Source: Botryllus schlosseri (Eukaryota). Taken from it: 64,000 nucleotides of DNA. The notes below the pieces were generated by a model that was not told the DNA's origin, searched no databases, and saw only the letters and a program-made list of their open reading frames with translations. Both the position numbers and the translations under genes were made by a program. Where the stretch lies: assembly GCA_051294905.1 (NCBI GenBank), contig CM119371.1, positions 9,488,001 to 9,552,000 of the forward strand, given 5' to 3'. Below, one piece after another: positions 3,986-41,679 of the stretch. Each line of letters begins with the position of its first letter. The first letter of the stretch is position 1.

Positions 3986-4050
3986 CAGTTGCATTGCCCT
4001 TAACAGCATGCTCTGACCAACTTCACACAATCAATTGAATCAGGTAAATG

Positions 4051-4230: not shown

Positions 4231-4251
4231 AATCACAAAAATCTAATCTAA

Positions 4252-6153: not shown

Positions 6154-6544
6154 CTTCTTATACTTCCTTCCCTCGCCAAGTCAAATCAATACTGAGCCGG
6201 CCACGCGTGGTCGATATGTGAAAGTCGCGTTCTTTCCCGCGCTTGGCGCTTGCGCAATCCGTGATCACGTGATCTGATCACGCCGTGACTGCGTGACCTA
6301 CGCATGCCCTGACCTCCTTACAAGACCGACAAATCAGTTGATATTAACATTATTACTTTATTAATTCATATTAATACTTGTGAATACACTTAATTTCAAA
6401 ATTTCCCAAGGAATTCACCGAGGGCCGGGTTCTCCAAGGGCCGGGTTCTCCAAGGGCCGGGTTGGTAGGGCCGGGTTCTCCAAGGGCCGGGTTCTCCGGC
6501 AACCCACGGACTGATTACACCAGCATTCAAGGACACATAATTTG

Positions 6545-9500
6545 TAGGGATGGTGTGAACGTCAGGTTCACATTCGGGTTCTGTGTGTGAACCTCAGAAA
6601 TTTAGAGGCTCACGTTCACAAACAAACCTTGGTTGGTTCTGGGCTGTGAACCTTTTTCATATGTTGCAGTTTCTCACTTTTTTTGTTGAAATTCTTTGCA
6701 TTTCAACTGGTACTACTTTATGCATAGCGCTGACAGCATACAAAAATCAACACTAACCGGGCATGCACCTGCCACTCTCAAAAATTTTGCTTGCTTTGTT
6801 ACAAAAGTCTGCTCGAAATATCCAGCTTTCCGTTTGTGAATATTTAATTACTCTCTGCTGTGAGTCTGACCCGCAATCACACAACATCAATTGCTAAATA
6901 CACTACATGTAGGTAGTCAGAGAGTGATGCTTATTCAATCAATCAATGAAATTGATGTCGTTGTCTAAAGTAAAAAATCTAGCAAGAGCATGGAGTCCAA
7001 CTCGATTTCATATGTCTATTGTATCATAAAAACCAAATACGGGCGACCGGAGTGTTGGATACTGCTGTATAACTTGTTAATAGGGTAACACCACTGAGCT
7101 ATATTAATACCCGTTTTACACTCTGCTCAATATCAACGTAGCTATACTTAGACACCTAGTACATTGTCCGGTCTATCCTAGACCGTTAAGGCGTAACTTA
7201 TATTCCCTTGGAAGTCCTCGTCGAAATTGTTGGTGAAGCGACGGGAGATATGGATTTTATGGGTTTATGATATCACTTGATTGCCCCAGTTGATACATAT
7301 GGCGACGTTTAAAACGTCAATATGTACTTCAGCATTGTGGCACTATGTGGCCATTCATACAAGCTATTACTTCACTGAAATATAGGGTTGGAATTAGCAA
7401 TATGACGTCACGTGACGTCATGAGGTTCACGTTCGCGTTCACACAGCACTTTTCAAAAAGGTTCGCGTTCACACGAACCTGAACCTTTCAGAGGTTCGCA
7501 CCATTGCTAGTGTGAACGTCAGGTTCACATTCGGCTTTTGTGTATGAATTTAGAGCAGTGGTTCTCAACCTTTTTGGCTTCGCGGACCCCTTTTGACCGT
7601 CACGGACCCTCGCGGACCCCCTCAAGTTTTAGTTCAATTTTCGCTCTATTATGGTGCAACCTTCATCTGTCTTGTGCAAATATGAACTGTAGGCTCGTGA
7701 TAAACAGCAAAATAATGATTTTTCTTGAAGATAACATCATACTCTTTATGTAGAAATTGGTGGACTTTTATTATTCCCAAGCTAATTTTGCTGCTGTCTT
7801 TCTTGAAGTACGTGTTCGTGTCTTGAAATATATGTTCATATTTTATGAACATATCACGTCCAGCATCTAGCGCAGGTACGGGCAACATACGGACCGCTGG
7901 CCGGATTCGGCCCGCGACGATATTTTGATCGGCCCGGAGAGAGTTTCTACCGTCAAAGTGAAATTCTAATCTAAAAGTATAGACAAATTTTATGCTCCAA
8001 AGAATGGATCCAAGTTTTCCAACCAGAGAAAGACTGTCATGAAACGACTTGTTCTGTTCGGGTTTACATATATATTTACGAGCAATGATTTTCGACCATG
8101 AACAATTGAACATTAACAAGACAAGGCTGCATACCAATATAACTGGTGATATGAATTTCAGGGTTGGAGCGTAGTGCTTTGATAGCAACGAAACACTCCT
8201 TGTTCATCAAAAAATCAGCCTTGTCGATAGGGCATCCGCAATAAGAATGCGCAAAATCTGATAGCCGAGCTTTAAGAGCAGGTATATCATTGTCCGATTT
8301 ATGACGAGTGTCAGCCGAAAATATTCGGGTTCATTTCAATATGAATATACTATTCAATTGTATATTAAAGTTCTGTACCTCTAAGAAGCTGCTCCATGCA
8401 TTGGGACAAATTATGGAAATACTTCGGAATTTTTTATTTCGAACGACTGTTCACTAATTTGATGAGACTGACAACTTCAAATCGAGAATGTTTCGCAGAC
8501 ATTACGAAGTCACCCTGATTAACGTTACATCTCCACATTTTTCTCCATATCAAAACGTCTCTAAACAGCAATATGTTTGTATCAGCAGGTTATTGGAAAA
8601 TTGGCAATGAAAATGAGTTTCCACACTACGATAGTCCATGTCAGACGATTATTACGATGATAGGAGTCATGAGGTTTTAGCAGTTGTGGTGCAAAACTAC
8701 CTCATGCCTTCTCAAATTATAAAAATAAAATAAAAATTAGTTTATCAACCATGTTAAAAATTTAGAGGTCTCGCGGACCCCCTGAAATTGCTTTGCGGAC
8801 CCCTAGGGGTCCGCGGACCCCCGGTTGAGAACCACTGGTTTAGAGGATCACGTTCACGTTCTGGGCTGTGAACCTTTTTGGTATATTACAGTTTATCACG
8901 TCATTATAACATCTTTTGTTGAAATTTCTGCATTTCAACTTGCATGCATGCATGCATGGTGCTGGCAGCATAACAAAAATCAACACTTAATGAGCATGCA
9001 ACTCGCCAATCTCAAATATTTTACTTGTTTGTTTTGTTAAAACAGTTTGCTCGAAATATTCATTTTCCGTTTGTGAATGTTTAGTGACTCTCTGCTGTGA
9101 GCTTGATCCGCAATCACACAGAATCAATAACGAAATACACTGCATTTAGGTAGTCGGCAAATGACGCTTATTCAACCGATCAATAAAATTGATATAAAGG
9201 CTATATCGCTGTCTAATGTAAAAATTCGAGCAGACGTACGGGACCCATCTCGATTTGATATGTTTGCTGTATCTTAAAAACTAACTCCGTGTGATTGAAG
9301 TGAAGGCTACTGCATAACATGTTTATGGAATAACATCGGTAACAAGTATAGATACCCATTTTACACTCTGCAATAGTCACACGCCAAACACAATGTCAGG
9401 TCAGGTCTAAATCGTTAAGGCGCAAGCTTAGATTCCCTCAGCAGTCCTCGTCCACATTGTTGGCTAAGCGACGAAAAATATTGATTTTATTTGATGGCAT

Positions 9501-14900: not shown

Positions 14901-17900
14901 TGACAGACAGACAGACCATAAAAAGTATCAGCTAACAGCTACACGCATTGACCAATTACTCTTAATTTACAGACATTTCTAATCGGTGAAGGGCTCGCTA
15001 ACACCCAATATCTAGCATAGTTGTATTGATGGTACGACGAAAGCATGTCATTTAAAAACGTAATATAATTAGTATACCATTGTCGTTGTTGAGACTTGAA
15101 AGTTGCAGCACGAATTAAGCGCATTCCGAGTACAAGAAATATTATTCCTCCCAGGCGGCCTCGTGCCCACCTTCAGATGCTTTCACCATAACTGGTCGAT
15201 GGCAAACTTGGTTCCAAGATTGTGAGCCGGCGATGTTATAAGTCTGCGGATTGATTTTCAAAATCGTGGAATGTGACCATAAAATTTTAAACGCCATGCA
15301 ATCAAAACTTTGACCAGTTGTCACGTGGAATTTAGCAGGGACAAGCATATTACGGAGAATGAAATGACACCATCGTTAATATTCGTTACGTGGGGAAAAT
15401 GAATATATTTGCTACATAATAAAATTTGACTTGGCCCTACAATCTACATGTGTCCACGGATTAGGTCGCCGGAATGCTGACGACTCTTCGCACAGACGAC
15501 TGGTCATGAATGGATTCATTCAACGTGGAACTTCCGTGCTTTTTCAGGGTTCTTCAGTGGAATTACGATCAATGTCATGTTCTTCTCGGTGACAGTATAT
15601 TACGATAAACATCGGGCTAAGGCAGCTGGCATCGCGACTGCTGGAATATCTGTCGGAGTGTTGGTGGCTGCGCCTTTATTGTCCGCATTGATCGAGGAAT
15701 ATGGTTGGAGAGGTGCGATGCTGATAACGTCTGGGATATCGTTGAACGCATGTGTGGGGATGGCTCTTTATAGGTTGGAATATTGGATCCGTAATATATA
15801 TTTTGTGCACGAGCGGCGATCTAAGATACTAATTCACAACATATGGAATATCTACATTCAAATTTCTTTTTTGAAGCATTGACTTGAAAGAAGGGATTGT
15901 GTGCCATTAACAATAACGTAGGCCTACTAGAAAGACATCATTTGATAATAACTAGGGAAAGGTGAAGCACAATAAATATGCCACGTGTGGATACATCGTG
16001 AATATTTTCATGCCGCGGCAGGAAGAATACATATCGCTGAGACGATTTTGTAGTTTCAGTTCAGCCGTAATCCTGTTGTGGTTTGATGTCGTCAGGGTCG
16101 CTGCCTTTCTTAGAAAATCGCGATTCTCTTAATTTTGCTAACCTGCGTAAATTTATATCGCTACCTTTCGATCGCGTTTTAGGTGGGTATATCCCGTTTG
16201 TTTTGGTTGAAATTAGTACACAGCTCCGTCAGAGCAGTTGTTAATCGCCCTGTACACCATTTCGGGCACAGGATTGTGGTGTTAATTTTTTTGGGGGTTT
16301 TAGCACTGAAGAAGTGGATGGGACACATTGGGACAATTTGATTGGGGCACAATGGTCCATTGACATCCAAAAGCAGATTTTACAAAACATATAAAAATAA
16401 ATAGAAGAGTCCGCAGAAGCAAGATGGTCACCAACACATAGAAAACATCTCTTGAAGTCTCACGCAATAAATGACGGACAGTAAGGTTATTTTGCCAACC
16501 CTTATAATCAATATGGATCGACGTGCTGGCAGCGATATTCGTGAAAGTTTCATTACGATTGCAAACATTCAGGATGAAAACTAAAACTGCTCTGGGACAC
16601 CCGGTTATCCATTATTTTCTTTACTCGTTCTCAGTTTCTTACTAACCGATCCGGTGTTCGTTGTGTCAATAGTGTCCCATCGGACTCTGCCTATATGGGG
16701 CACAATGGCACGTTATTTCGGCGCATTTCGAACTCATATTTCTTTCATGTTCATGTTCATCCATCGTTGAGCTGAAGTTCATTGGTATATCTGGATTTGT
16801 AATGTCTTTTACGACTAAAGTGTGATTCCTGCCCCATTGTGTCCCCCGTTCCTTTACTTCCGACGGACTTGGCATAATATGCACTCATTGCACTGCGTGG
16901 TGATGTTGGGCAATTCTAGTGACATGGATGTAGATATTATTAAAGGCGTGTTGAAGTTAATTCAACCATAACTTCTCGGCAACGCCGTCTCAGTAAGTTT
17001 GATTCTTGGCATTGTCCATTCTCGGTAATGTCCATTCTCTGTGGGGTCCATTCTCGGTAATGTCCATTTTCGGTAATAATTTTCTTGGTATTGGTTTAGT
17101 AGTACCATGATGCTTAAATTATTTTACGCTGACGAAAACGATTGGCAATATCACGGCTCATCTATCAACATTGAACGTTTAAAATCACTGAGAGAGACAG
17201 AGTTGTTTTGCGTCAACTATATCAGACCAAAAAAATAGTGGAAATATGCGGTAGAAAACAATACTATAAATAAATTGTCGATGGTCAAGTACAAAACCGC
17301 ATTTTATCATCGGGATCAGCAAAAAAAAATCACTATTTCCAGGTACCCCAATCTTTAGTTTCTTTTATATGATAGAATTGATACATCATTAAATGAACGA
17401 ACCGACGTGATGCTCACTAACGGGAGACATACGTAAATTGAAGGATGACAAATTGTTGCAGATATTGCCCGTACTCACAATAGAATATTGCACCTTCATT
17501 AAATTACTAAGAGTTTTGCGGTTGGCATTCTCGGCTATTTTTCTTCCTCGCTTACAATTGACGATTCATTCCGTCCGCCTACCAGAAGTAACATAGCTTC
17601 ATTTCCACAGACCAGTAGTCACGGAACAAGTCAGCAGCATATCCAAATGTGACGTTTACAAAAACTATGAAGATGAACAACCGCGTAAGCGAAAATGTAC
17701 AGATCGACTGACTGCAATCTTCGACTACACGTTATTTACGCGTCCCGAGTACATCTTGGTCTACGCGAGTAGTATGATGCGATACGGCCTTTATAGTAAG
17801 GTCATCTAGTCTGCACCCCCGGTTTTTTTCTCCTCCATGCTATCCGTGATTGCTGAGCGCCTAGCAGGATAGCCGCGGATACCAGTTTTCGAGTCTTTGG

Positions 17901-20900
17901 TCTGACCCGGCCGGGGATCGAACCCACGACCTACCGATCGAGAAGCCGGACGCTCAACCATTACACTATCTCGCTCGGTGATGTCCCTGCCTTTTGCATT
18001 TTTATATGCTGAATATTACTATAACCCTCGCGCTTTCTGTCAATATCCCAAGTTTCCAATACCGAACATACCAGAATACATTTTTGGGTATAATTGTCAC
18101 AATATTAATAGCATTCAAGTCCATCATCTCTATGCTGATAACAATACACAGTAGACCTATGCTACTGAAGTAATATTATTTCTCGTGCCACAGTTCGGAA
18201 CAACATTTCTTATCGTTCCGCTGGCTATGGAATCACTGGGTTTGGAACGATCGGATGGTTCGATTTTACTTTCGGTGTATTATGGAGGGGAGCTTTTCGG
18301 CAAACTGCTAAGCGGACTAATCGCCGACTGCAAGAGAATTAATAGGTTGGTAAAAATATGTCACAAATTTATATGAAGTGTAGAATCGCCCGAATTAGGC
18401 TATATTTGCCCAGTACTGTAGCGAGTCCGAAATGGATCTCCAAAAGGTGTACGCTGCAACGTCTGAGACCTTTTTTCGAGTGCGAAGCCTCGTGTATATA
18501 TTTGGTTAACTCTCGTTTCCGGTTGTATGTCCATAAACATATTCAATTCATGCCAACAGCAGCTCCATCGAATAGTGACATATAGAGAATATTGTTATGT
18601 CAAGATCGGAAGGTGGCTACTCATCGGCTTACCTTTACATATTGGTGTGTAGTTAGTGTCGCGGTTATAAATTGTACGTGGCTACGTACATACCTTCCTA
18701 CGTCCCAATACTATCGTCATTTGGTTTACAATGTTGTGTTTTATTTATACCGTTGTGTAACTCACGGGTGGTACACGGGTGCGAATGCACGCTGTTTGTC
18801 GCTAATGGTGTTCTGTACCGTGTACACTGTACAGCAGGGCCGGCCAACCCGTGGCCCGCGGGCCACATGTGACCCGCGAGAAGGTTTTGAGTGGCCCGCG
18901 ATGTAATTTCCGAAATGTCTAATATCAAAAATGAATTGCACAGATTGTGAACTTGCAAGGCCAACCAAAAATTTGATGAGTCTGGTTGCAACACTTGAGA
19001 TGTGATGACTAAAATATCAGGTCCGACGCATTGACAGATCCATCAGCCAGTCACATATTGGTATATCTTCGTATACACTACAATAAAGCAGAATAATTTG
19101 CGATAGATTTATCAAAAGTAAAAATTTTCTACAAGCTTAGCGCAACATGTTGTCACTTGATTCCTTGTTTTTAATATTGTTGCCCTTTTTATGAAAATGG
19201 AAAAACGCCTAATGTATCAGATTGAGTCGAACTATATTCGCGATTACGGGACAAAGTGTCGTTCAACATATGCGACCTTGCGTTTGCGCTCGCAGTAAGA
19301 TCGTTGACTATGAAACCTAGGCACGGAAAGATTGACGCTTGTTGGTCGCAGCTTTCGATATCGATATGTCCATGCGCCGAATAGCCCAGTCCTTGCAAAC
19401 TCAGCCCAGCGATATACGGCAGGCCCGCAATATACTCAAATGACAATATTATTGACCTATGAACTTCAAAAAAATTCGCGCTTCGCGCGGTAAGTGGCCC
19501 GCGCAATATTTCGTCAATCGAATGTGGCCCTTTGGCTGAAAAGGTTGGCCAGCCCTGCTGTACAGTGTACAAGGGCAACCACCATAAATTCTACCTTCCA
19601 TTGTAACTACAGCCCGACAGATTATAGATTCCCGATAAGGATGCCGTATCTTTTGAATATCGGTCGAGTATATCAGGGTTATCGTTGAATGTGGTAGATA
19701 TCGATTTTATCGGTATCAGTACAAATCCGATATCGTTAGGGCTCTAATCATAACACTTTATACTCCACATCGACAACGAAGCATCGGAAGCCACCAGGGC
19801 TCTTCAATGATACGAATATAATCAAGCAATCACGAGGTGCGAAAAATAAGTCTAAATAGGGCTTATAAAGATGAATTATGACCGCACTGGGCTGTTATAA
19901 TATGAGACAAGCTAGTAGTTGAAACTTTTATACACAAGCTCTGTTTCATGCCGTTTGTTGGTCCATGTTGTCTCACATGCCGGTAGAACATGTTTCCGGG
20001 CATGTTTGACACCGTTCTCTTCCTTCGGGTGTGGTGCCAGGCAGACGTTGCAGAATTGAGTTCGAAGCCCCTGCCCTATGCAATGGTGGAAATCTTTTTT
20101 ATTCACATTGTACCTGTTTATTTGTATGTGTATTGTCACCGACGTGCTGGGGGTAAGCTTCCACCAGACAGCCCCGCTTATTTTCCTGCGTCATGGTAAA
20201 TATCATTAGATTTCGCGATTTTCGTTTAGGCTACAGAGTGTCATACATCAGACCATCACCAATTATCTAATATACATTCGTTTTAGGCCATTATTCTTGG
20301 GCATTGCCTCGTTTCTTGGCACACTCGCTACCTTCGGGATGACTTTGTGCGGGACGTTCACTGCTGCCTCCGTTATGGCTTTCGTTATTGGAATGACCTA
20401 CGCGCCCTACGGTGGCCTATATGCACTCCTACATCCGGAGGTGTTCGAGTACAAACAGATTAAAAATGCTATAAGCTACGATGGCTGTATGAGCACAATA
20501 TTGACGCTGCCGGTGTTATACGTTTTAGGTAAGTTCTCGTTATTAACGGATAACGTGCTCCTTGTGCACTACGTCAAGCGGTATTTTTGATTCGGTACGT
20601 TATTTCTGACCTAATGTTTGACGTTCGATCAAATACTATATAGAGCATCTAACCACAGATTACTAACCTACCGATAGATGCGCAACACGGGACTCACGGT
20701 TGAATGTGCAGAGAGGTGTACTGCTGACCCGGCTAGAAGCAGCATAATTGGTAGTACTATAGCTGGCGATCCAAATTTGATATGTCTGGTCTTAGTCGAA
20801 AGCTAGTGTCGCACTGATTCTGGAAATAGAAACCACACGAACCACCCCAAAAATTGTCATCAAAGTCCGAAAATTGGGATTGTTCTAAATCAGTGGTTCT

Positions 20901-23358
20901 TAACCTTGTCTCCAGCGCCCCCCAGGGGCGATTTGGATTTTGAAGGGGGTGAAATGGGGGGGTGCTGAGCTCAGGGGGAGTGGCATGGGGGGCACTGAAA
21001 AAAGTGGCTTCACAGTAGGTGGTGTAGTAAGGACATATGATTATATAGTAGAACAATAGTTCCATATATCCCTGAGTTCTCATTGCAAACTGACATCGAC
21101 AAAATCTGTCAAACCAAAACCAATAAGAACCACTGTTCTAAACAATCATTCGACGCAATTGGCCAATAGCCATTGTTATGATCATTGTGCTGTGGCGCTC
21201 TCATTGTTCAGAACGATCGGCATTTGACGTCTATCTTAGAGTGGTTACATTGCCGTGACGTCATTATAATTTGTATTTTCGGAATTAATGCGTCACCAGC
21301 TTTTGATTAAGACCAGGCATATCAAATTTGGACGCTTGGATCGCCAGCTATAGGACTACCAATTATGCTGTTTTAGAAGCTCAGCAGTGGGCCTCTGCGC
21401 ATTCAACAGTGAGTCATCTATCCGTAGGTAGGTTAGTAATCTATCATAATCTGGAACGCGTTGTAACGCCGGTACTTTTCTAGTTACATCACATACAGTT
21501 ATGCAATGCAACCATTCTTTATCCTGGGTCATCGAATAGTGTTCGATATACGACACCCTTCTTGGCAGGACTGGTAAAGTCAACTGCAGTGACGCGATAC
21601 CTTTGCTTCTCAGACATCGATGAGTTTTCAATCATTTTATTTCTCCTCGTGTGACAAAGCATTGGAATAAATACGTAGGTTATAATATATTATTAAAATT
21701 GAAAACTTGAAAGTGGCTTCTGATAATTGGCGCGGGTGTGAAATTTATCAGTAAATTTATATCTTAATGTCAAAATCGAATATTTACGAAAGCAACGATG
21801 GCTTTTAGACTTGCAATTGTATTTCCAATCAGAGCACAAACTTACTAACCCTTTATCTTAACTATAGCCCTTATTTCGCTTATCTTATGAACTGGTTAGG
21901 GTTGCATTCGAAACAAACGATAGTTTAAAACTTTTTGTTCAAACCATGTTTTAAACAGTGTTTTAAATAAAGGCCTTTTTTTAACAAACAATTTCGTGTA
22001 CCACCTAAAAATAGTACATTGAACGCTCTCTCATTCGAAATTTCATGCTGGTGACGTCATATTTTGTAATACGATTGTTGATATACAATGTTCTTTCCAA
22101 TTCTCTACTAGTTGCTGACGATTACCCCTGACGAGTGTCAGCCGAAAATATTCGGGTTCATTTCAATATGAATATACTATTTAATTTCTTTTCAAGTTGT
22201 AAGATCATGCCATGATTGTGTAAATACGTGTTGTATGAGCCTACGAACAATTACCACCCGATATAGCTGACGTATACGATGTTGGGTGGTTGGAACCCTC
22301 AAAATAGTCGGTTCAGCAGCTATAGTACGTAGATATTTCTTCAAAGCAGCTATATTTACTATATATTTTCAATTGTCAATGTCAATCCACTTTGACGTCA
22401 CAATTTCAAATTCGTGACGTCATGTCCTAAAAAAAACAATAAAAAACATGTTTTAAACAACGGCCTTGTTTTAAACATGTTTGTTTCAAATAGATTTTTG
22501 TTTTAAATACAACCCTAGAACTGGTACTTAGGGCAAGCGTAAACCCGTAATTTCACCTTCACATTAAACTCCCGATTCATTTGTGGCATGGGCGAAATGG
22601 GTGTATTGACTAGAGTTCCTCCATTGGAATGAGTGAAAACGAATACACCAATCCTTATAGATGTATATGTCCCTGGTTGCAGTAATCTTGTAAACATGTA
22701 CTGCCCGTATTCGTCTTTTTAATGTGGTAGACAAAAACAGAACACATTTCATCCTTGATATAGTGCTATGACAGCATTGGTGTAGGCTAGTCGGCAGTTT
22801 TCCACGTTCTGGACTGGAAGTGATACAAATTGTATAACAGTAATGGTCGTTTCCGGGATCTTGGCCGCAAACTAAACTGTCCTTGAGATAACTTGCTACT
22901 CGAAAAGTTGCTACTCTGTCGGTTTACTACACTTGCGGTGGCTTTGGTAAAACTTAATCCAACGGATTATCAGACACAATTTTTTTGAATAGCATGAAAT
23001 AGCCTTTTCTCCCAACCTTCAAATGCTAGCGATTACGGACAGTGCTAGGCACGACGACCACCAGAATAAGTGACGAAATCCGTATTGTTTTACGTTCACA
23101 GGAGTGCTGATCGATGCAACTGGAGACGTTCGAGTGCCTTTTTACGTTTGCGGACTTTTCATATGTATTTGCGCCACGTCTCTTGTCGGTATTTATGTAC
23201 TCTTACAAAGGCGCGATTCGACCAGGGCTTTAGGGCCGGAGCCGGAGCAAAGAGCCGGAGCCCCGGAGCAGTGCATTTTAAGCGGAGACAGAGCCGGAGG
23301 CGGATCTCTAGATAAAATTCAAGTAGATCCGGATCCGGAGCTGGATCCTGTTGTTTAA
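11934..23358 (+). CDS. SLC16/monocarboxylate transporter-like MFS permease, copy A (exons 11934-12132, 12804-12944, 15548-15773, 17611-~17800, 18194-18345, 20287-20528, 23102-23358); possibly disrupted
   Basis: SLC16-type motifs DSGWTW, FGVFYPE, YYDKHRAKAAGIATAG, YGWRGA, GLIAD, LIDATGD. GT-AG exons 1-3, 5 and 6 have the same lengths as in copy B (199, 141, 226, 152, 242 nt). The exon 4 donor is uncertain because of a SINE, and the C-terminus is extended by a TE. Confidence 0.85.
13221..14698 (+). mobile_element. hAT-Charlie deletion derivative with transposase C-terminal remnant
   Basis: TIR CAGTGGTTATCAACC / GGTTGGGAACCACTG. TSD TTCTAGAG at 13213-13220 and 14699-14706. Remnant ECDQGFSSLMTIKSKRRNRL..DFRCAVSKRMPRIDQLV/ENTQMQPSQ* resembles the Charlie/Buster dimerisation tail. 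Confidence 0.85.
13522..14396 (+). mobile_element. Charlie-type MITE family Y, nested
   Basis: Ends CATGAGTGGCCAACC / GGTTGGCCGCCCCTG. TSD AGCTAGTG at 13514-13521 and 14397-14404. Splits the transposase remnant. Confidence 0.85.
17775..17979 (-). mobile_element. tRNA-derived SINE (core resembles the Meta-SINE domain)
   Basis: Minus strand has A box TAGTGTAATGG and B box GGTTCGATCC, then CAGACCAAAGACTCGAAAACTGGTATCC..GCGCTCAGCA. Related copy at ~25796-25990. The Meta-domain assignment is from memory only. Confidence 0.8.
18835..19557 (+). mobile_element. Charlie-type MITE family Y
   Basis: TIR CAGGGCCGGCCAACC / GGTTGGCCAGCCCTG. TSD CTGTACAG at 18827-18834 and 19558-19565. Further fragments at ~26740-27063 and ~34130-34800. 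Confidence 0.9.
20891..21135 (+). mobile_element. Short Charlie-type MITE, family Z deletion form
   Basis: CAGTGGTTCTTAACC..AAGAACCACTG. TSD TTCTAAAT / TTCTAAAC. Left end shared with 28121-29913. Confidence 0.75.
21897..22517. mobile_element. hAT-like MITE with TAGGGTTG ends
   Basis: TAGGGTTGCATT / AATACAACCCTA. Perfect TSD GAACTGGT at 21889-21896 and 22518-22525. Related to 54421-56329. Confidence 0.85.
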
Positions 23359-23380: not shown

Positions 23381-23798
23381 AATTCAAAGATGCTATGCTA
23401 CTTCTATTGCCGTTGTCGTCGATAATCGTTCACAAAATTAAAAAATTTTGCCACCTTGGCACTACCTTTTTAGACTAACCATGTTCATGTTTGTACATAT
23501 ATCTGCAAGACGTGGGTAGGGTAGATATGCTGCGATATGCTTCGTATAATTACTGTGTTGTGAGTATTCGTCATCAGTTTGTCAAGTAGAAGTAGTTCAA
23601 TCTTCCAATCAGGAAGATAGCCTGAGGAATTTCGGGGCTGTTTTCACGGAGTACCAACATTTAATTTCCATAAAAGTTGAGTAAAGCTCAGAATTTTCGT
23701 TGCGCTTCGCGCGCAGTGGATACGGCGTTACCATTATGATTTCACGAAAGTATCGATGAATATAATTTAGGTAGCGGGTTGGCGTGATTCCGTTCACA

Positions 23799-23834
23799 CA
23801 GGGATATCTAGAACTAGACATCTAGATATCCCTG
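23799..23834. mobile_element. 36-bp hairpin micro-element
   Basis: CAGGGATATCTAGA-ACTAGACA-TCTAGATATCCCTG, flanked by perfect 8-bp TSD CGTTCACA (23791-23798, 23835-23842). Confidence 0.8.
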
Positions 23835-24967
23835 CGTTCACACCACATTGTCGCCCTTCGCCTGTATGAAATAATTCATCGCAGTATATATGGCTCATCA
23901 TAACGTTTGAAACTTATGTTTCGCAATCTAGCATTTACTTGTCATATCGTAATCTAGCATGTCCATGGCGCATCCTACCTCGGAAAAGTGGACTCTGACA
24001 TTTTTGTCAGTTTTAGAGCTGTTTCAGCATACCACCTATGAAACTTTCTGAACTAAAGGCGTAAAAACGTGTTCCACTTTTAGAACTAGTAGTTATGTTT
24101 CATTTTCAATTCCCAGTATCATATACTTTGAGTTATAATTATTATCAGTTCTTTTGTATGGATAACATACACGTTGAAGTATAAAGGCAAGTGTAGTAAT
24201 GCCTTTAATTTCCGGAAATAAAGCTACACAATATCGCATTTTTACGGTCCACCATATTTTTTATTAACGTTTGCTAATCGCGCAAAGTGTTTACACCGTA
24301 TCCCATACAACTTCTCCGTATTGCTCTTCGACTAAACTGCGGACCTTATAATATGGGGATGGCGCCATAACATGCTATTTTTTAAAACGTGCTGTTCGAG
24401 AAAACAGGATAAGTATCGCATTTCCATATCAATCCTATCATTTTCATCCCATGATGTGGACGAATGCTTATGCTATCGAAAATTGGATACCTGCTCGTAC
24501 GCATCAATGTGAATCAAGCTCGTCACCTTTCGCGTAGCTGAATTTGCACCTTTATACAATCCATGTGAACAAATTAGGATCGTTTTCAAACCTAATTACT
24601 TACTTGAGTACTTTTAAAGTCAGTCAATTCTACTTCTACTTCAAGTAGTTTTAGGTTTCTTATGGAAGAAGTACTTCTACTCGTACTTGAGTAGATTTTT
24701 TCGTCGCTACTTCTACTTCTACTTGAGTAGCTTTCTTGACTACTTTGACCACCTCTGGTCATTTGTGTGGTTCGAAAAATAAATATCACTGTGCAATGTG
24801 CATTTCAAAAATCCCGACTGATGCTTATGCGAGCTGAGTAATTTAGTTAATTAGTAATCAGGCGAATATCTAAGCGACGCAAGAAGTTGGAAAACGGTCG
24901 ATTGGGAATCGTGCAAACCACGAAACACTGTCTCCTATCTGAATTAGACGAGCAAATGCACGTTTGT

Positions 24968-25721
24968 TATGGTTACCATACGTCCTCTTTTAAGAAGATT
25001 TGTCCTCTTTTTTTACTTTCTTGAAAGTGTCCTCGGAGGACGCCCAAATGTCCTCTTTTTTAAGATTTTGTCCTCTTTTATGAGAATTTTGGCTAAATAT
25101 TAGGCAAAATTCGACTGAGATACAGTAAATCAGCACTGAAGTAACGCTCTGGTGGGTATTGGTGGAGCTGGGCCGGAAAGGTGACCTTTTCTTTTTTTAG
25201 TCCACCAACGGAAAGAAAAACCGGTATTCTGGGATTTGGGCCGTAAAGCTGACCTTTTTTTAGTCAACCGACCACGACGTGGGAAAATTTACCGTCTGAA
25301 AATTTTAGAAAAGTGTCCTCTTTTCTAGGCTTACCATATTTTGGAAATCTAAAAAGAGGAAGAGGACACTTTTTCAGAAATTTGCAACTTGCAAAACCGG
25401 AGTAGAATTCTCAAAAACCGGTGAATTTTTCCCACTCTGCAAGCGGCTGACTAAAAAAATGGTCATATTTTCGCTCCGAGCTAAAATCACCGTTTTTCAC
25501 TCCGAAATACCCGCCGGAGCGTCACTTCTATGCTAATTTGCGGCATATCACTCGCAATTTGCTTTAAATCTAACCTAAATTTTCAAAAAAGAGGACAAAA
25601 TCTCAAAAAAGGGCGTCCTCCGGGGACACTTTCAAAAAAGTCAAAAAAGAGGACAAATCCTCTTAAAAGAGGACGTATGGTAAGCCTACTCTTTTCACAT
25701 TTCCCAAATATCATAACCCTA
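24968..25721. mobile_element. hAT-like (Blackjack-type end) MITE containing an inverted copy of its own family (25326-25688)
   Basis: Inner copy TAGGCTTACCATA..TATGGTAAGCCTA with TSD CTCTTTTC (25318-25325, 25689-25696). Outer copy TATGGTTACCATACGTCCTC..ATAACCCTA, outer TSD not evident. Confidence 0.8.
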
Positions 25722-27894: not shown

Positions 27895-28528
27895 CAGTCA
27901 CCATTAGTAGTAAGTCAGTGACATGACCCCAAATTTCAAAAAGACACATTGAGCTAATAGTTTTTTGAAAAAATCGCCCAAAAAGTTGTTCTCCACAGAA
28001 GCGATAAATGATTTCAAAGATAGGTGGTCATGCTGCTATATAACTTCTGACACAAAAGGTAATTGGCCTCCAGCGAAAACCAAATGGTCATAATAATGAA
28101 CCGAATTCCAAGGTCTACACCACTGGTTCTTAACCTTGCCCCCAGCGCCCCCCGGGGGGCGCTGGCGATTTTGAAGGGGGCGGAAACGCTCAGGGGGCGA
28201 TATGGGGGGTACTGGGCTCAGGGGGGCGGTATGGGGGGCGCTGGAGAAAAATGGCTTCGCAGTAGAAAGAGTAGATGATGTGGTGGTAGGACATATCCTT
28301 CACGAGTATTCAGAGCAAATTAACACCGAAAAATTCGTTAGATATAGCCTACAAAATGCATATCGGATTAATTTTCCATGGGCGCCTAAATGACTGGCAT
28401 CGAATGTTCCTGTCTTGGCAATCTGAACCTCAGAAGACGAATTCCATCTGGCAGAGAAAAATTATATGCCAGTGAAGAAATACCAATTTGAAACCGTGTG
28501 CGTCTTTTAGTTTAGTACGATTGGGCGA

Positions 28529-28556
28529 CAGGGATATCTAAAACTAGATATTCCTG
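28529..28556. mobile_element. 28-bp hairpin micro-element
   Basis: CAGGGATATCTA-AAAC-TAGATATTCCTG with TSD TTGGGCGA / TTGGACGA. Paralogous copies at ~2080 and ~36079 show the empty site TTGGGCGATTCTATA. Confidence 0.8.
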
Positions 28557-28695
28557 TTGGACGATTCTATATTTTTTGATATAGCAGACAGGAGGTCACG
28601 AAATAACATCATGCAACGAAGTCATACCAACGGGTTCGCTCGCCCAAATATGTTTATTCATTAGTTACGGGCCCTACAGTTACCAAGACACCTCA

Positions 28696-28854
28696 CAATG
28701 TTCGCTTTACACAGCTCACTGCGCTGACCCTTGGACAACAGTGTGTAACGACTAAAAAAGGCCATAACTTCGGATTTGTTGTGCGCAACGTAGATTTTCT
28801 GTGCGCAGAGACCGTGGCAGCACTGCGCACGTGCGCAGCTTAGAGGGAACATTG
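28696..28854. mobile_element. Small MITE with CAATGTTC..GAACATTG ends (second copy ~29922-30136)
   Basis: 7-8 bp duplication CACCTCA(C). The empty site is visible in the family X copy near 2211. The 3' end GCGCAG.TTA.AG.GAACATT is shared with 30115-30136. Confidence 0.75.
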
Positions 28855-30249
28855 CACCTCACTCAGCTCTACCGGTAAATCTGGTAACGTGAGCAGAGAG
28901 GACAAGAAATTGATAGCAATATATATGCAATTCCCGATCTTACTGACCAATTTTATCATGAATTATCGAAAGTTTTCGCGCTTCGCACTGGCTCCCAAAA
29001 AGCACAGCTGATTCCGTGCAAAAGCGAACAACGTGATGGGGGGCGGTCGGTTTATCACCCTATGGGAGTCCAAGACCCAAGTTTTTTACGGGGCCTGACG
29101 AAGTGCCGTTTCGTTCCTGCCAACGGGTATAAGCCAAGATGTATAATTATTATTGAGGGGTCCTACCTTTTCAATCACACATCGCTCAGCTTCACCGGTA
29201 AATCTGTTTACGTGAGCAGAGAGAGGATAAAAATTGATCTCAATATACATGCAATTACCGATCATATTGACCAATTCAATGATTAATTACTGAAATTTTT
29301 CGCGCTTCGCGCGTCAAGGCGAGAATAGCTGCATCAGTAAATGGACACATAATGTAGATGACTAGTATCAGCAAATACCGGATAGCCGATTGGGGTCTGG
29401 GGGCGAAGCCTCTCGGAAGTTTGGTTTATCACCCGATGGGGGGCTCAAGACCAACGTTTTTTGGGGGGCTGACGAAGTGCTGTTACGGCCCTGGTAACGA
29501 ATTAATTGTACCTACGGGCACACCCGAATATGTTTAATTATTAATTACGTGCCCTTTATTTTCCCATACAACAGCTCACTAAACGCTACTGGTAAATCTG
29601 ATTACGTGGGCTGAGAGGATAAAGAGTTTATAGCGACTTATATATGTAAATACCACCTATTCATTCATGCATTATAGAAAATTTTGGTACCTAGGGCGAC
29701 CAGGCCACACAAACTCTGCTGACCATCGAAATCACGCTATGGGGTTCTTGGGGGCGCAAGGCAATCGTTTTAGGGGTGTTGACGAAGTGCTGTTACGGCC
29801 CTCCCTCTTACTCATTGTATTTATTATATTCCTTACAATATGAGGTTGGGGGGCGCTGGAGCACGATAATTTTTGAAAGGGGGCGCTGGAGAAAAAAAGG
29901 TTAAGAACCACTGGTCTACACCAATGTTCTCTCCAAGTTTTCATGGGTGTCACTCACTGCGCGGTCCTTTGAACAACAGTGCGTAACATTTAGAGATCCG
30001 ATACTAAGGGCATTGTGTTGGCTAAAAAAACTGACATCACTTCGGCTTTTTCTGTGCTCGGCAAAGATTTTGCTGTGCGCGCAGACTTTGTCATCTGTGC
30101 GCGGCCGCGCAAGCGCGCAGATTAAAGAGAACATTACACCACATAGGCCTATACCGTTAAATCTATAGTATTCCTCTTAACGCATAAGCCATCACGAGTA
30201 AAACAAAAGGGGCATAGTAATATTCCAACTCATATCATCTAATGCACTT

Positions 30250-32140
30250 TTTCGTAACCTTTTTTCTCCAGCGCCCCCTTTCAATAATTATCGTGCTCTA
30301 GCGCCCCCCCACCTCAAATTGTAAGGACTGTAGTAAAGACGATGGGTAATAGGGAGGGCCGCAACGGCACTTCGTCAGTCCCCCTGAAACAACGATTGTC
30401 TTTCGCACCCATAGCGTGATAGACCAAACTTCTGGGGGCTTCGCCTCCAAGAACCCTGTCGCGTGATTTCGATGGTCAGCAACCTTTTGTACAATGCATG
30501 AATTAATAGGTGGTAATTGCATATATATGTAGCTCAAAACTTTTTATCCTCTCAGCCCACGTAATCAGAAGTACAGTAGCGCTGAGTGAGCTGTTGTCTT
30601 GGAAAATGATGGCCACGTAATTATTAACTAAAGATATTCGGGCGTGCCCGTACAATTACTTCGTTACATGTTGTTATTTTGTTACCTCTTGTCCGCTATA
30701 TAGTCAAAAGATATTGAAACGTATAAACGTATTAAACTAAAATAAGCACACGATTTAAAATTGGTTTCTTCACTGGCAAATAATTTTTCTCTGGTGGATG
30801 GTATTTGTCCCGTGGGGTGCAGATTGCGACGACCTGATCATTTGGCACGGGCGATATAAGCATCTATGGATAATTGGACTTATCTACATAGAAGTTTAGG
30901 GTCAACATCAGGGCAATCCTCTTCGGCTAAGGTATCTCGCTGACGATATTTTGACACACTTCTTGGAGTCCCGTATTAGCCGGAACTTCATGTGTCTTCG
31001 TGCATCTTGGCGTGGTAATGGCCGACGCCGAAATGCCTATTTCTCTTTTCTATAATTATGCGTATTTTATCGTGGGGGATTCGTCGAAACATGATGTTTA
31101 ATTTATGTTCATTCACCGGAATAACTTACGGCACCCTTTAAGATCAACCCCCTCAATTGGGGGTTTGGGTTGCAGCAGTTTCAGCCCTGGTAAGAGGTCA
31201 AAGTCCAGTCGGTCTTTTTGGGACTTTAGTATTGGATATATTTCGCGATTTAATCGCGCTCGAGGACCACTCGACTATCATAAACCATATAATATTAGTA
31301 TGTGGTATATTCGATCGTAAATCGAGATTGTTATAACAACAATCAGGTACGGTGTCATACTGTGTGGTTCGAACCATCCCGGATTCACATCTGCGATTGG
31401 CAACACGGGGAAATTAATGGTATTTGATTTTGTTTCAGTGCGTTGTGTGACTAAGTTAGTCAACTGAGAATGAGATGCATGTATCTGCTCACATTGAATT
31501 TAGTACTATACCCAGTTATTAATCTTAACATGAATGTATTCCAGACGAAGCAACTCATATTATATGACTTTTATGAGAGGTTGTGGGCAACAACACTAGA
31601 TAGAGACGATAAATAAATATTCTGACGATTTAATTGTGTAGCTCTCAAATGCAAGGATATTTAGTTATTCATTTCATGCACAAAGCTTCAAAACATATTT
31701 TATATACGAGGGGCTCTCACTCTCAAAAGTGATATACAGCGCATTCTTCTTCAATTTCCACAAGCTGTGCGCTGCTGGATATAATACCTAGTTCGAAACA
31801 TTTTGTTGAATATAACCCCAGCATGCGTGACGGCATTGTAATAATGGAAAATTGGCGATTTTAAAGTACGCGAAATTCATTATACATGGATTATAATAAT
31901 CCACTACATTTATGAAAACATATGTAGCAGGCATGTTTTGTGGAATGCTAATTTGCTCTGAATACTCATTAAGGATATGTCATACTACTACATCATCTAC
32001 TGCGAAGCCATTTTTAGTCAGCGCTCCCATATCGTCCCCTGAGCCGAGCGCCCCCCATATCGCCCACTGAGCGTAGCCGCCTCCTTCAAATTCGCCAGCG
32101 CCCCTTGGATGGCGCTGGAGGCAAAGTTGAGAACCTTTGA
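30250..32140 (-). mobile_element. Diverged reverse-orientation copy of composite family Z/X element
   Basis: AACCTTTTTTTCTCCAGCGCCCCCTT at ~30256 is the reverse complement of 29876-29903. 31990-32135 mirrors 28121-28280. The interior mirrors the family X body. Confidence 0.7.
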
Positions 32141-32587: not shown

Positions 32588-33300
32588 ATGGATATTTTGG
32601 ACATCTTAGATGACAGTTCGGACGACGAGAATACAATTGTTGTGCCCATGCATTACTTGGCAGACATATCGGACCCATTTGTAAAATACTCAGAAATTGA
32701 ATTCGTTGACCGCTACAGATTTTCCAAGGGAGCTACGGTAATTCTATAGGACAAAATTAAAGACAGCCCACGGTCGGATATACGGTGTCACGCTTTCCAT
32801 CTCATGATGCAATTTATCTGCGCTCTCCGATCTTTGCTACGGGTCATTTTCAACAAACAGATGCTGACTTGATTGGTGTAAGCAGGACAACCGCACGCCG
32901 AAACATCCACTGCATTTCTCGAGCAATATCAGAGAATAGAGATTAAATTTATCCCGCTATTGGATGATTTCTTTGACATAGGTGGAGTTCCAAATGTCAT
33001 TGGTTGCATTGATGGCACCCATATCCCATAGAGTCCCCGCGTGGCTCAGCACCAGAAGTTTATCGTTGCAGGAAAGGATATTTTTCTTTGAACTGTCAAA
33101 TGGTCTGCAAGGCCACGAGAATAGTGACTAATGCTGTTGTGCGATGGCCAGAGAGTACTCATGACTCAAGAATTTTTTCAAACGTCAGATTAAAATATGA
33201 GCTCGACCAGAAAAAATACAATGGGATTTTGCTGGGAGACATAGGCTATGCTGCTCTAACAATGTACCTGATGACTCCATTAACAAATCCACAGACTGCC
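32588..33300 (+). pseudogene. Degenerate PIF/Harbinger (HARBI1-like) DDE transposase
   Basis: Across frames: EFVDRYRFSK, FATGHFQQTDADLIGVSRTT, GGVPNVIGCIDGTHIP, YRCRKGYFSLNCQMVC, VRWPESTHDSRIF, LLGDIGY..LMTPLTNP. In-frame stop at 32747-32749, frameshifts, and truncated before the catalytic E region. Confidence 0.9.
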
Positions 33301-34985
33301 CTACGCATATCGAATTCTTGCGTTCTGAAATATCTTTCTTCGTCTATCATGTCTTTTCTTTCTTTGCGCTCCTGAATCTTGGACGCCATCAGTTCAATTC
33401 TCAGCACATCGCAGCTTCTTTTATTAGGTTTGGATTGTTTTTCTGAATTGAAAGAAGTTCATATTGACTCTGCGATGAGGTAGTAACCTATCATTAAACT
33501 AACTTGTATTAGGAGGCCAATCACAAAGAAATCATTTGGAAATTCTCCTTGCCTTGTTGGCTGATTTTGTTTTTATCTGATGATGATGAATATCTGTTTC
33601 CAATTGTGGTATCCATTCGACATGAGCGATGAACCAATAATCGGTCAGTCTCTATAGTCATTAAAAACTTGTCTTCTGCAACCAGCTGATCACAAAGTGC
33701 AGAATTGGTAGTTTTCATTGTATTGTATACTAGAGCCCGACTGTTATTGGAGTTTTGGGCCGATACCGATAAAACCAATATCTAACTCCTTCACCGATAA
33801 CCACCATAGCCTATATTCAAAGTGTGTGGAATACCTTAGAATGCGCATTTCAAAAACTTCAGAGCAACTATTTGAACAGCTTCACACAGCCAATGCTATA
33901 CTTGGAAAGGAAATAAACTACAAAGGCTGCGTCAGAATACCTGTAAAGTGTAATCTATGTGAAATATATATTCGGTCTGGCTCCATTGTATACCATCTTA
34001 TAACAATTGTTACAGGATTGTAACTATGTGCATTACACTGGTAATCAGCAATCTTTCGAGCAGTCAAACACCATTTCCAATCGTTCGCAGGTACACTGCA
34101 CTAAAAAAACTCAGTACAAAGTGGAGATGTTGATGACTAGATTATAAGTTCCGGCGAATTGTCGTAGCCTGAGGCCAGCCACGTTTTTCGTAGATCTTCG
34201 TATATGACGGTAAAGTATAATATTTCATGGCAGATTCAATTGACTTGATATTCTCTTCGCATTTCGCGCGATGTATAGTCACTAGATTTCTTGCTTTTAC
34301 TATGGATACCGCTTCCTAAAAATTGAAAATACGCCCAAATTATAGAATTTTGTCTAGCCATATTCGCAATTATGAGAGAACGTGTCGTCCAATATACGAC
34401 TTTGCATGTGCGCTCGCAGAAAGATCGCCGGCAAATGATACCTTTGCACAATATGATTGCGGCATCTTCGCCAAAATCTTCGATATTTATATGTCAAAAT
34501 GCCGAGTAATCCTGTCCTTGCCAAATGAGCGGAGCGGTATACGGAGGTGACCCGCAATATATATAAGTGACATTATTATTAACCGAATTCCTTCACGAAG
34601 TTGGAAAATTTTTTGCGCTTACCGCGCTTATCACGTGAATGCACACCGAATTTTCATGACATAATTGTTATCGATTTTGATGCGTTTTGTTTTCACCGTT
34701 ACCTAATCCGGTTCGCTCCTATCAGGTCATCAACATTCAAGTGGCTCGCTCAATGGTTCGTAAATCTCATGTGCCCCTTTAACCGAAAAGTCGCCTGAGC
34801 GAAGTGAGGTTTATTGAACTCGTCATCAGTTTAATTAGTGCTGACACTTCTAAGTTTCAAAAACGGCAATAATCCTAATCATATTACGATTTGAAATGTC
34901 AAAGTTGCGTGGTAACATCCATACAACGATGATAGATTGTGACTGATACTGGACCTTGCACCGATCAGAACATTTCATTATAAGG

Positions 34986-39449: not shown

Positions 39450-41679
39450 CAGTGATGAGCGGAGTCTGCTTTTCCAGACTCCGAGTCCCTCCTACAACTT
39501 TGGTCTGTGAGGCAAAGTCCCTCCGACTCCGGGCAGCTCAATCCCAGACTCCGAGATAACCCGAAGAATCTTGTCCAGTCTACGAAACATCCATATCGGT
39601 AGAGGTAGTTCTTAAAAAACATTGTCGAAGAATCCCAATGATAGCAACTCTTGATAGCAACTCTTAGTTCCTCTGTCAGTGTCAGCTTCCGCTTCAAAGA
39701 TGAAGCCTCCTCATCCAACTTAGGTTTCATCGTAAATCTGGATGGCAAAACGTCGTCGGCACTCACTTTGCCATGCATTGCCCCAATTTCGATCAAGGCA
39801 TCAGCCATCTGCTTGAGGTCCTTCCCCTCAATAGAGCTCGGTGGTCTGATATCATGGGATACAAAGGAGACAACCACAACACCACGGACAAAACTTCTCC
39901 TTTGATTTCTCGCTTACTTTTTTGTTGGAAGAAAGAAAGGAACTTATCTTCAACTGCGATCCATTCTTCTTACACGCTTCGATATGTCTTCGAAGATGCG
40001 ACGTACCACTTGTCATTTGTCAACATGTGATGCTTTAGCTAAACATTGCAATTTTGACATCTCGCAAACCCAGTATACTGGCCATTATTATCATGCTTCA
40101 GAGTGAAATCCTTCCACACGTCACTTTTTTTCTGCCTCTTTGTGGGTAACCCACTTGACGTCGACGGAGGAAAACCAGTCAGTCCGAACTACCTACCACT
40201 TACATCGACGATCACATCACAGGTTTCAGTAAATTAAGTTCAGTTCCGCATCGCCATGAAACAGTTGATGGAGCTGCACTAAACAGACTTGATGCATCAC
40301 TGACGCACCGCACCGATCGACGCTCCTTGGAGTTGACTAAATGACTATTGACTTCCAATTTTAAAGCTGCTACATGATATCTGGAATTTGGAGTTTGAGA
40401 CAGACCAGCAGCAGAATCTTGTTTGCGGTGCTGATTTTTCTTATCACATCAAAGTCATTTTTCAATCAAACCAAACATTACATGACGCAAATTCAGAAGA
40501 GTTCTGGATGACTGATTACGTCAATCAATATTGAAGGAAGCGTAGTTGATGCGAGTTGCGAGCAGAGCAAAGCAGACGGTTGTAGTTATTTAGTGTGGCT
40601 GTTCAGAAATTCAGAATATTTTGTTTTTACTGGGTAAGATCAGCTTACCTCAGTGATTTATGTATTGTTAAAATCTTTGAAGCGGGCTTAGATGCTGGTA
40701 TGCCCATGTAAGCGGATCTTACTAGCGAAAATTCATCGCAACGTCATTCAATCATTATAACACATTGTATAAGTTTTTATTGTTTCAATCCAGAAACTTG
40801 CTTGTTGTATGTATATTTCTCACAGATATAAAAGTAATCTTGATGTAACACTTATTATCGATATCTCTCACTGCAGAGTAGTAAAGTAGCAAAGTACGAT
40901 GAAAGTTGCGAAAAGTTCTCACAAAAGTGGCATCACATATTATCTTGTTTCAACTGATACCAACGTTGGGAATACATTTTCACAAAATGGACCTATTACT
41001 ACGTTGAATGTCATCAAGATAATGGGATATATTCCGTTATGATCATGAACTTGCTGGAAGAATCAGGGTAGCTAAAGGTTGTACCATTGGGAAGCCCCGC
41101 TGTATGTTGCTGATTGTAAATGTTTCGCACAATTACTGGGGTAGCATGAAAATCAGTCACGAAACAAATACGCAAGGAGAATTGTGACTATAGAAGACTG
41201 CAATGACAGCAACGTTGAAGATTCTGGAGATCTTATCTCATAATACGGTGACATTCAGCTGTGGATTCAAAGACTGCATCTCAAGGCAGGGAGCAAATGA
41301 TGCACTGCGGATGATGTTGGGCGCCTTTAATTTTGTGAACTACAGACTCTGCTCAACGAAAATGCCTTGCTAGATCACTAGGTTACTCTCCAGTCCCCAA
41401 TTACAGTGCAGATGGCTGATTGCTACGCACTTGGCAATAATTTTTGCATGTTACCCTTCATATTACAACTTTACAAGGTGTCAACTGTCTGTGTTTTGGT
41501 TTGTAATCAATAGTGTCTTCTGGTCAGAGCTATCGAATGATAACGGGGGCAAAACTTACAACACTCCGGGAAACTCCGGAAAAATATCTGTAGTAAACTC
41601 CGGGTCCACTCCGAGTATCACAAAATTGGCAAAACTCCGCTCCGGATACACTCCGACTCCGCTCCGATGCTCATCACTG
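39450..41679. mobile_element. Non-autonomous hAT element with transposase remnant
   Basis: TIR CAGTGATGAGC / GCTCATCACTG. Perfect TSD ATACGCAT (39442-39449, 41680-41687). Subterminal CTCCG repeats. Confidence 0.9.
39640..40140 (-). pseudogene. hobo/Hermes-type hAT transposase N-terminal remnant (BED finger + Hermes-like DNA-binding domain)
   Basis: KSDVWKDF..ARCQNC(stop)..SGTSHLRRHIEAC (frameshifted), then DIRPPSSIEG..LIEIGAMHGKVSADDVLPSRFTM. Confidence 0.75.

What the first reader, a model, noticed from the sequence alone, without database searches (positions are those of the whole stretch)
23799..23834. 36-bp hairpin micro-transposon with a perfect 8-bp TSD
Seen: 14-bp perfect inverted arms starting CAGGG, an 8-nt loop, and TSD CGTTCACA. 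A sister of 28 bp lies at 28529. Known: CAGGG ends with 8-bp TSDs are hAT hallmarks, but MITEs are typically much longer and hAT enzymes generally need subterminal sites. Inference: either a family of TIR-only elements near the physical minimum for transposition, or a stereotyped collapse product of a longer element.
Basis: partly seen in the sequence, partly recalled or inferred. Interest (0 to 1): 0.7.

Follow-up and report, generated by a model that had tools for sequence, protein, structure and literature searches.

The report
Excision scars of P-like transposon
This 36-base hairpin between two copies of an 8-base target is most likely not a tiny jumping gene but the scar left when a longer cut-and-paste transposon, probably of the fruit-fly P-element type, jumped out and the cell joined the two leftover tips of its ends.

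Summary
In detail: 14-bp perfect arms, an exact 8-bp TSD, a 28-bp sister, and empty paralogous sites for both copies. A metagenome scan gave 120 loci, or 63 independent sites, in at least one other animal; 42 of 63 have an 8-bp TSD with at most one mismatch.

These do not behave like one mobile unit. Lengths run from 28 to 75 bp. Arms stop at 19-20 nt. 31 of 32 short forms fit two identical 3' tails joined by 1-2 nt of microhomology. All 31 long forms are distinct and carry inserts copied from the arms, three of them also from their own TSD and flank. This matches P-element excision junctions in Drosophila (PMC2895639, Table 1) and the polymerase-theta signature.

Best reading (0.75): dead excision scars of a long-stagger, P-like transposon that cut about 17-21 nt inside its ends. 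The parent element was not found, so P membership is unproven. An earlier scan note (e1-7810740, another genome) gave this lead, so the scan found the same kind of scar before on other DNA. A self-mobile 31-bp hairpin is not excluded (about 0.1).

The parts
23791..23798 (+). left copy of the 8-bp target site duplication (CGTTCACA)
   Evidence: single copy in empty paralogues
23799..23815 (+). left arm remnant, 17 nt of the transposon end (inferred donor 3' tail)
   Evidence: sequence; same end in 63 other sites
23816..23820 (+). 5-nt junction insert AGACA, a 1-mismatch copy of the right-arm sequence AGATA (templated insert, inferred)
   Evidence: sequence; these 5 letters are left out in 8, 5, 0 and 4 contigs of the four runs laid
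23821..23834 (-). right arm remnant, 14 nt
23835..23842 (+). right copy of the target site duplication
23574..24757 (.). high-copy host repeat (approximate limits) in which the 36-bp scar sits
   Evidence: summed contig depth 1e5-1e6 against about 85 in the left flank, loose ends at 23574 and 24757
28521..28528 (+). left TSD of the sister scar (TTGGGCGA)
28529..28556 (+). 28-bp sister scar: 17-nt and 13-nt arms overlapping by 2 nt (CT), with 2 later substitutions
   Evidence: within 2 mismatches of the predicted join
28557..28564 (+). right TSD of the sister scar (TTGGACGA)
28121..29913 (.). unrelated hAT-type non-autonomous element (approximate limits) hosting the sister scar
   Evidence: inverted ends; paralogues
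21058..21074 (-). possible third, degraded arm (15 of 17 match); uncertain
   Evidence: blast E 0.05; alignment with host paralogues inconclusive

Best explanation
These hairpins are excision footprints, not elements. (1) Shown: a transposon with ends starting CAGGGATATCTAG inserted with an 8-bp duplication at many sites in at least two animal species. (2) Inferred: on excision its transposase cut one strand at the element tip and the other deep inside the terminal repeat, as the P-element enzyme does (17 nt in Drosophila). That leaves each flank with its TSD copy and an identical, non-complementary 3' tail: 19-21 nt in the metagenome host, possibly 17 nt in the window's organism. (3) Inferred: polymerase-theta-type end joining paired the last 1-2 bases of one tail with the nearest complementary base in the other tail and filled in. 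This gives a few recurrent lengths (20+13-1 = 32, 19+13-1 = 31, 19+14-2 = 31, 18+14-2 = 30, 17+13-2 = 28). Repeated prime-copy-release cycles give the one-off 36-75 bp forms, including the window's 36-mer. (4) The scars are inert and multiply further only as passengers of host repeats. The parent element and its enzyme were not found.
For: 8-bp TSD with at most 1 mismatch in 42 of 63 sites, against 0.13% of cross-site pairs. Empty paralogues in the window, in SRA contigs and for 3 metagenome sites shown. The longer arm reaches the same stop, CTCC, in 30 of 38 sites of one end type and 14 of 25 of the other; the next base is T, G, A or C in 16, 5, 5 and 1 of 27 arm ends with inserts. 31 of 32 sites of 33 bp or less lie within 2 mismatches of a join predicted from terminal microhomology. 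All 31 longer sites are distinct sequences. 346 of 401 insert bases in 23 inserts are covered by 5-mers of the arms or own flanks, against 104 +/- 19 in 1000 shuffles. 3 of 12 internal arm copies run on into 7, 8 and 13 nt of their own TSD/flank, matched by no other site's flank. The shorter arm extends to 15 nt or more exactly in 21 of 31 long sites but 1 of 32 short ones, so both ends once carried the long arm. TSD decay is the same in short and long forms (mean 0.90, n = 30; 0.79, n = 24; p = 0.57; 9 sites with more than 3 mismatches dropped). Reference spectrum: P excision junctions keep both TSDs and up to 17 nt of each end, with one 30-bp join in 14 of 66 isolates and inserts in 18 of 66 (PMC2895639 Table 1, my tally). 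Single-nucleotide homology and templated inserts are the polymerase-theta signature at transposon breaks (PMC4490562 passages).
Against: No parent element or P/THAP transposase was found: none in the window (150 longest of 254 stop-to-stop frames of 62 aa or more scanned with Pfam), none in 175 kb of loci, and only unpaired single-arm hits, read as chance, in prokaryote genomes and viral contigs. The arm reference and its cap were derived from the same sites, so the join prediction is partly circular. T is the commonest base after the cap, so the tail may be 1 nt longer. 9 of 12 internal arm copies show only 0-1 nt of flank match. 12 sites share one exact 32-mer and 6 one exact 31-mer, which a mobile unit would also give. 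The 31-locus site holds both 32- and 51-bp forms, so lengths also change after the fact. The target consensus (weak T3/A6) does not single out P. 12 of 63 sites have a TSD with more than 2 mismatches.
Confidence: 0.75

Rival explanations
1. Transposase-independent collapse of a longer element whose inverted repeats are only 19-20 bp long (for example a hAT or Zisupton family): the repeats pair in single-stranded DNA and replication slips across, or gap repair aborts after excision, leaving only repeat sequence between the TSDs. The cap would then be the repeat length, not a cut depth.
For: Explains the TSD, the cap and long arms on both sides equally well. The window is rich in hAT-type elements with 8-bp TSDs. 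No P transposase was seen.
Against: Slippage should favour longer homologies than 1-2 nt (inference), yet 24 of 30 simple joins are the 1-nt or 2-nt classes at the cap. No sequence from inside the element is shared between sites: uncovered insert bases are short and unrelated. Iterated templated inserts with run-through into the flank point to a break with free 3' tails.
Confidence: 0.13
2. The 31/32-bp (and 28-bp) hairpins are themselves mobile TIR-only elements. Two ends cannot be synapsed within 31 bp of duplex, but a cruciform would present two 13-bp hairpin ends to a transposase, and the two strands could re-anneal after strand transfer. The long forms would be later rearrangements.
For: One exact 32-mer at 12 sites and one exact 31-mer at 6 sites of 63. 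A 31-bp form also seems common in the window's organism (5 letters left out at 23816 in 3 of 4 runs). In-place length change is real at one multi-copy site and at L015/L089. No parent was found.
Against: Several separate short classes would each need an origin that happens to be a terminal-microhomology join. 21 of 31 long forms carry long-arm sequence on both sides, which a 13-bp-stem unit lacks. Three forms contain their own flank. Long forms are not older than short ones. A dominant recurrent join is normal for P excision. There are no subterminal binding sites.
Confidence: 0.1
3. Chance palindrome or assembly artefact.
For: The metagenome loci come from short-read assemblies, which can merge the 32/51-bp forms at the multi-copy site.
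Against: Chance estimate 4e-7; 63 sites with their own TSDs; the same structure in contigs of different assemblies at many sites; empty paralogues.
Confidence: 0.01

Closest known systems
Drosophila P-element excision footprints (17-nt staggered cleavage; PMC7776569 passages; junction table PMC2895639 section 7)
   Same: Both 8-bp TSD copies kept, a capped remnant of each terminal repeat, one or two dominant short-microhomology joins of about 30-32 bp, and a tail of longer joins with templated inserts.
   Different: Different end sequence; cap at 19-20 nt rather than 17 in the metagenome host; seen here as a fossil, many-site family in non-fly animals rather than as lab isolates; parent and transposase unidentified.
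Polymerase-theta end-joining scars of Tc1 excision in C. elegans (PMC4490562 passages)
   Same: Single-nucleotide homology at simple joins and inserts templated from beside the break.
   Different: Tc1 leaves 2-nt tails at TA sites, so no hairpin remains; that study found fewer than 10 natural scars in 45 isolates.
hAT-superfamily MITEs (recalled)
   Same: 8-bp TSD and ends starting CAGGG.
   Different: MITEs carry subterminal transposase sites and are a uniform mobile unit; here there is no interior at all and half of the sites are unique.
Earlier scan note e1-7810740 (24-36 bp CAT...ATG micro-elements read as P-like scars, another genome; unchecked AI note)
   Same: Same anatomy and same reading.
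   Different: Different end sequence and genome; I did not see its data.

Membership tests
P superfamily (parent element) | 7-8 bp target site duplication | tested here: met
   8 bp in 42 of 63 sites at 1 mismatch or fewer; other lengths 5-11 fit at most 2 sites
P superfamily (parent element) | long staggered cut that leaves terminal-repeat tails on the donor | tested here: inconclusive
   capped arm remnants and join classes fit it, but the cap could be the repeat length; no parent to compare
P superfamily (parent element) | THAP plus P-type DDE transposase between these ends | not testable with these tools
   no genome held; no hit in the 150 longest window frames; parent not found
P superfamily (parent element) | ends starting CA-N-R-G (motif recalled, not found in the paper search) | tested here: met
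   CAGGG; also fits the hAT motif, so not diagnostic
Polymerase-theta end-joining junction | 1-2 nt homology at simple joins | tested here: met
   31 of 32 short sites within 2 mismatches of predicted joins; partly circular
Polymerase-theta end-joining junction | inserts templated from sequence beside the break | tested here: met
   23 of 23 inserts; 346 of 401 bases against 104 +/- 19 shuffled
Polymerase-theta end-joining junction | genetic dependence on POLQ | not testable with these tools
   needs an excision assay in POLQ-deficient cells
hAT MITE | 8-bp TSD and short terminal inverted repeats | tested here: met
hAT MITE | subterminal transposase-binding region inside the repeats | tested here: not met
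   no interior sequence shared between sites
hAT MITE | copies are a uniform unit that moves intact | tested here: not met
   31 of 63 sites are longer one-off structures, 3 containing their own flank; only the short half is uniform
hAT MITE | autonomous hAT partner with the same ends | not testable with these tools
   hAT fragment at 39450-41679 has other ends; no genome held

The most novel reading that the evidence does not exclude
The 31/32-bp hairpins are self-mobile passengers, far below the usual MITE size, that reach the transposase as an extruded cruciform whose two hairpin arms act as the two transposon ends. A scar could even become such a unit after it forms.
Probability: 0.1. Interest if true: 0.85.

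Novelty: new variant of a known kind. Interest (0 to 1): 0.4.

Why it matters
If right, repeat annotation would misread these as the smallest MITEs when they are dead scars. They also let one read an uncharacterised transposase's cut depth (about 17-21 nt) from genome sequence alone, and they suggest that the long stagger known from the fly P element operates in other animals with a family-specific depth. They form a natural archive of germline end-joining products, dozens of sites from one break structure, where a C. elegans survey found fewer than 10 natural scars. The same 13-nt end in two species whose other DNA barely aligns gives a handle for finding the parent family. If the mobile reading were right instead, it would redefine the minimum size of a DNA transposon.

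Tried and rejected
Whole-genome census: no genome is held for this window, and the metagenome contigs are not held as searchable records.

Parent search, all negative:
- viral contigs: 0 hits with a 20-nt arm, 0 with both arms, 8 single-arm hits with a 17/18-nt pattern, none paired with a TSD;
- prokaryote genomes: 1 single-arm hit in a 58% GC bacterial contig, rejected as chance;
- flanks of the 120 loci: extra arms were almost all parts of compound scars;
- window frames against Pfam: no P or THAP family.

Papers: 9 searches. The 13-nt end is in no paper of the library; no paper on TIR-only hAT elements or on natural P-type footprint families turned up (listings only). The library lacks most subscription papers and Repbase, so this is no proof of novelty. 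No supplements were read.

My first reading, a mobile 31/32-bp unit at 65%, was dropped after the tests. The G that follows internal arm copies at several sites was rejected as evidence of flank run-through, since the arm's own last base explains it. Copy number from summed contig depth was not used, because the tool says it is no copy number. SRA runs with small word shares were not used, except X20 and X5, which were laid. The third arm at 21058-21074 stayed unresolved. The target consensus did not separate P from hAT. The host taxon was not determined.

Full report
Observation. The feature is as described. Window 23799-23834 has 14-bp perfect inverted arms around 8 nt and the same 8 bases, CGTTCACA, on both sides. 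It folds with z = -5.8, and a rough chance estimate is 4e-7 per window. The sister at 28529-28556 is 28 bp with a one-mismatch 8-bp duplication. A scan for short palindromes with a 7/8-bp duplication found these two and one unrelated 61-bp stretch, and nothing in 3 shuffles.

Both are insertions. The sister lies in a hAT-type non-autonomous element; 4 paralogous stretches in the window lack the insert and 2 of them show the target once. The 36-mer lies in a repeat of very high copy number, about 23574-24757. In all 4 runs laid, contigs skip exactly 44 bp (7, 7, 3 and 1 contigs at one joint, 1, 1, 1 and 0 at the neighbouring one). These are paralogues, so allele polymorphism at this locus is untested. 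The same call shows 5 letters left out at 23816 in 8, 5, 0 and 4 contigs, which points to a 31-bp form in this organism; its exact letters were not shown.

The family elsewhere. No genome is held. Outside the hairpins these loci share only hAT-type element ends with the window, so they come from another species. The window itself is animal-like intron DNA with transporter exons and MULE, hAT and Harbinger-type remains; earlier notes on this genome also call it an animal (unchecked). Clustering by flanks gives 63 independent sites; one holds 31 loci and one 6, as passengers of host repeats or the same site in several assemblies. An 8-bp TSD with at most one mismatch is present at 42 of 63 sites (51 at two mismatches) against 0.13% of cross-site pairs, and no other length fits more than 2 sites. 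Three empty paralogues were displayed.

Anatomy. Taking the longest form at each site, lengths are 28-75 bp, with 16 sites at 31 and 13 at 32. Two end types differ by one A: the arm continues GAAACTCC (20 nt) or GAACTCC (19 nt). The longer arm reaches CTCC in 30 of 38 and 14 of 25 sites. In 27 arm ends followed by an insert the next base is T, G, A or C 16, 5, 5 and 1 times, and no interior sequence is shared between sites. The reference arms came from these data, so the cap rests on the variable bases after it; the T excess allows a 1-nt longer tail.

Change of reading. Until I favoured a mobile short unit. I tested that idea on my own sites. P transposase cuts 17 bp inside its repeats and makes 8-bp TSDs (PMC7776569, passages). 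In Rad51-mutant flies the repaired donor keeps both TSDs and up to 17 nt of each end; by my tally of Table 1, one 30-bp join makes up 14 of 66 isolates, a 32-bp join 5, and joins with inserts 18 (PMC2895639, passages and section 7). Single-base homology and templated inserts mark polymerase-theta repair of transposon breaks (PMC4490562, passages). The zebrafish THAP9 preprint (10.1101/2024.03.22.586318, passages) confirms P-like elements with 8-bp TSDs outside flies but gave no footprint lengths in the passages seen.

Tests. (a) Joining two identical tails by terminal microhomology predicts 32, 31, 31, 30 and 28 bp products. 31 of 32 short sites lie within 2 mismatches of one (12 exact 32-mers, 6 and 2 exact 31-mers), and the window's 28-mer matches the 17+13-2 product. 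This is partly circular. (b) All 31 long sites are distinct, and 346 of 401 insert bases are covered by arm or own-flank 5-mers against 104 +/- 19 in shuffles. (c) Of 12 internal arm copies, 3 continue into 7, 8 and 13 nt of that site's own TSD and flank, matched by no other site; 9 show 0-1 nt. Such DNA cannot travel with a mobile unit. (d) The shorter arm matches 15 nt or more exactly in 21 of 31 long sites and 1 of 32 short sites, so both ends once had the long arm. (e) TSD decay does not differ between short and long forms (0.90 versus 0.79 mismatches, p = 0.57, after dropping 9 sites with more than 3 mismatches), so long forms are not visibly later derivatives. The window's 36-mer reads as 17 nt of left arm, a 5-nt near-copy of the right arm, and 14 nt of right arm, which is the simplest two-step product.

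Against. The parent was not found, and the main scan could not have shown it. The 32- and 31-mers recur exactly, as a mobile unit would. At the 31-locus site both 51- and 32-bp forms occur, and L015/L089 differ as 31 and 49 bp, so deletions also happen later. 12 of 63 sites have a poor TSD. The target preference is weak and does not separate P from hAT. The 17-nt figure for the window's organism rests on two copies and one doubtful arm.

Mechanism and odds. Shown: insertion with an 8-bp duplication, capped arms, microhomology joins, templated inserts. Inferred: a staggered cut 17-21 nt inside the ends, repair by polymerase-theta-type joining, a P-superfamily parent. I give 0.75 to excision scars of a long-stagger transposon, 0.13 to collapse of an element with 19-20 bp repeats without such a cut, and 0.10 to a self-mobile hairpin. 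It works like a P footprint; membership of the parent in the P superfamily is not established, because the transposase was not seen.

Novelty. P footprints are long known from fly genetics. In 9 paper searches I found no description of this end sequence or of natural P-type scar families in other animals (listings only), but the library omits Repbase and most subscription journals. The scan itself noted the same kind of scar in another genome. I rate it a new variant of a known kind, interest 0.4.

Noticed in passing
window 21058-21074 (-): Possible third degraded arm (15 of 17 match) inside a short hAT-type element; about 28 extra bases relative to two paralogues by eye, but the host sequence itself resembles the arm.
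   Followed up: partly
L105, L025, L018, L041, L003, L010: Arm position 13 is C instead of G at 6 of 63 sites, in both end types; either a variant parent end or a hairpin mutation hot spot. Unexplained.
   Followed up: partly
L049:1174-1196 (same site L075): A 23-bp short join of the same arms, next to a hAT-type end and without a clear TSD; a class the scan pattern would miss.
   Followed up: partly
L004 site (31 loci): One scar was carried along in a multi-copy host repeat as a 51-bp form that shortens to 32 bp by loss between direct repeats.
   Followed up: partly
window 3585-6502: Mutator-like element with tandem-repeat inverted ends, a 501-aa FLYWCH plus MULE frame (4255-5757, -) and a PHD-finger fragment (5929-6180, -).
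   Followed up: no
window 39450-41679: hAT element with an 8-bp TSD and a Hermes DNA-binding-domain fragment; its ends differ from the scar family.
   Followed up: no
window 33013-33372: DDE_Tnp_4 (Harbinger-type, label recalled) transposase fragment.
   Followed up: no
window 15481-15879, 18155-18373, 51574-51810: MFS transporter exons; the exon near 15540 has an 80% identical copy near 51576, suggesting a tandem gene pair.
   Followed up: no
window 46355-49666, 52809-53416, 24968-25688, 29513-30652: Several foldback elements with long inverted arms (271 bp at 96%, 198 bp at 95%).
   Followed up: no
window 855-3348, 7556-8837, 20891-21135, 28121-29913, 41902-43198: A family of hAT-type non-autonomous elements with CAGTGGTT ends and 8-bp TSDs; the same end type occurs in the metagenome host.
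   Followed up: partly
window 25311-25371: 61-bp palindromic stretch with a one-mismatch 8-bp duplication inside a foldback element; other ends, not examined.
   Followed up: no
window 23574-24757: The host repeat is single in this window but has summed contig depth thousands of times the flank; its right end (about 24600-24757) is deeper still. Family not identified.
   Followed up: no
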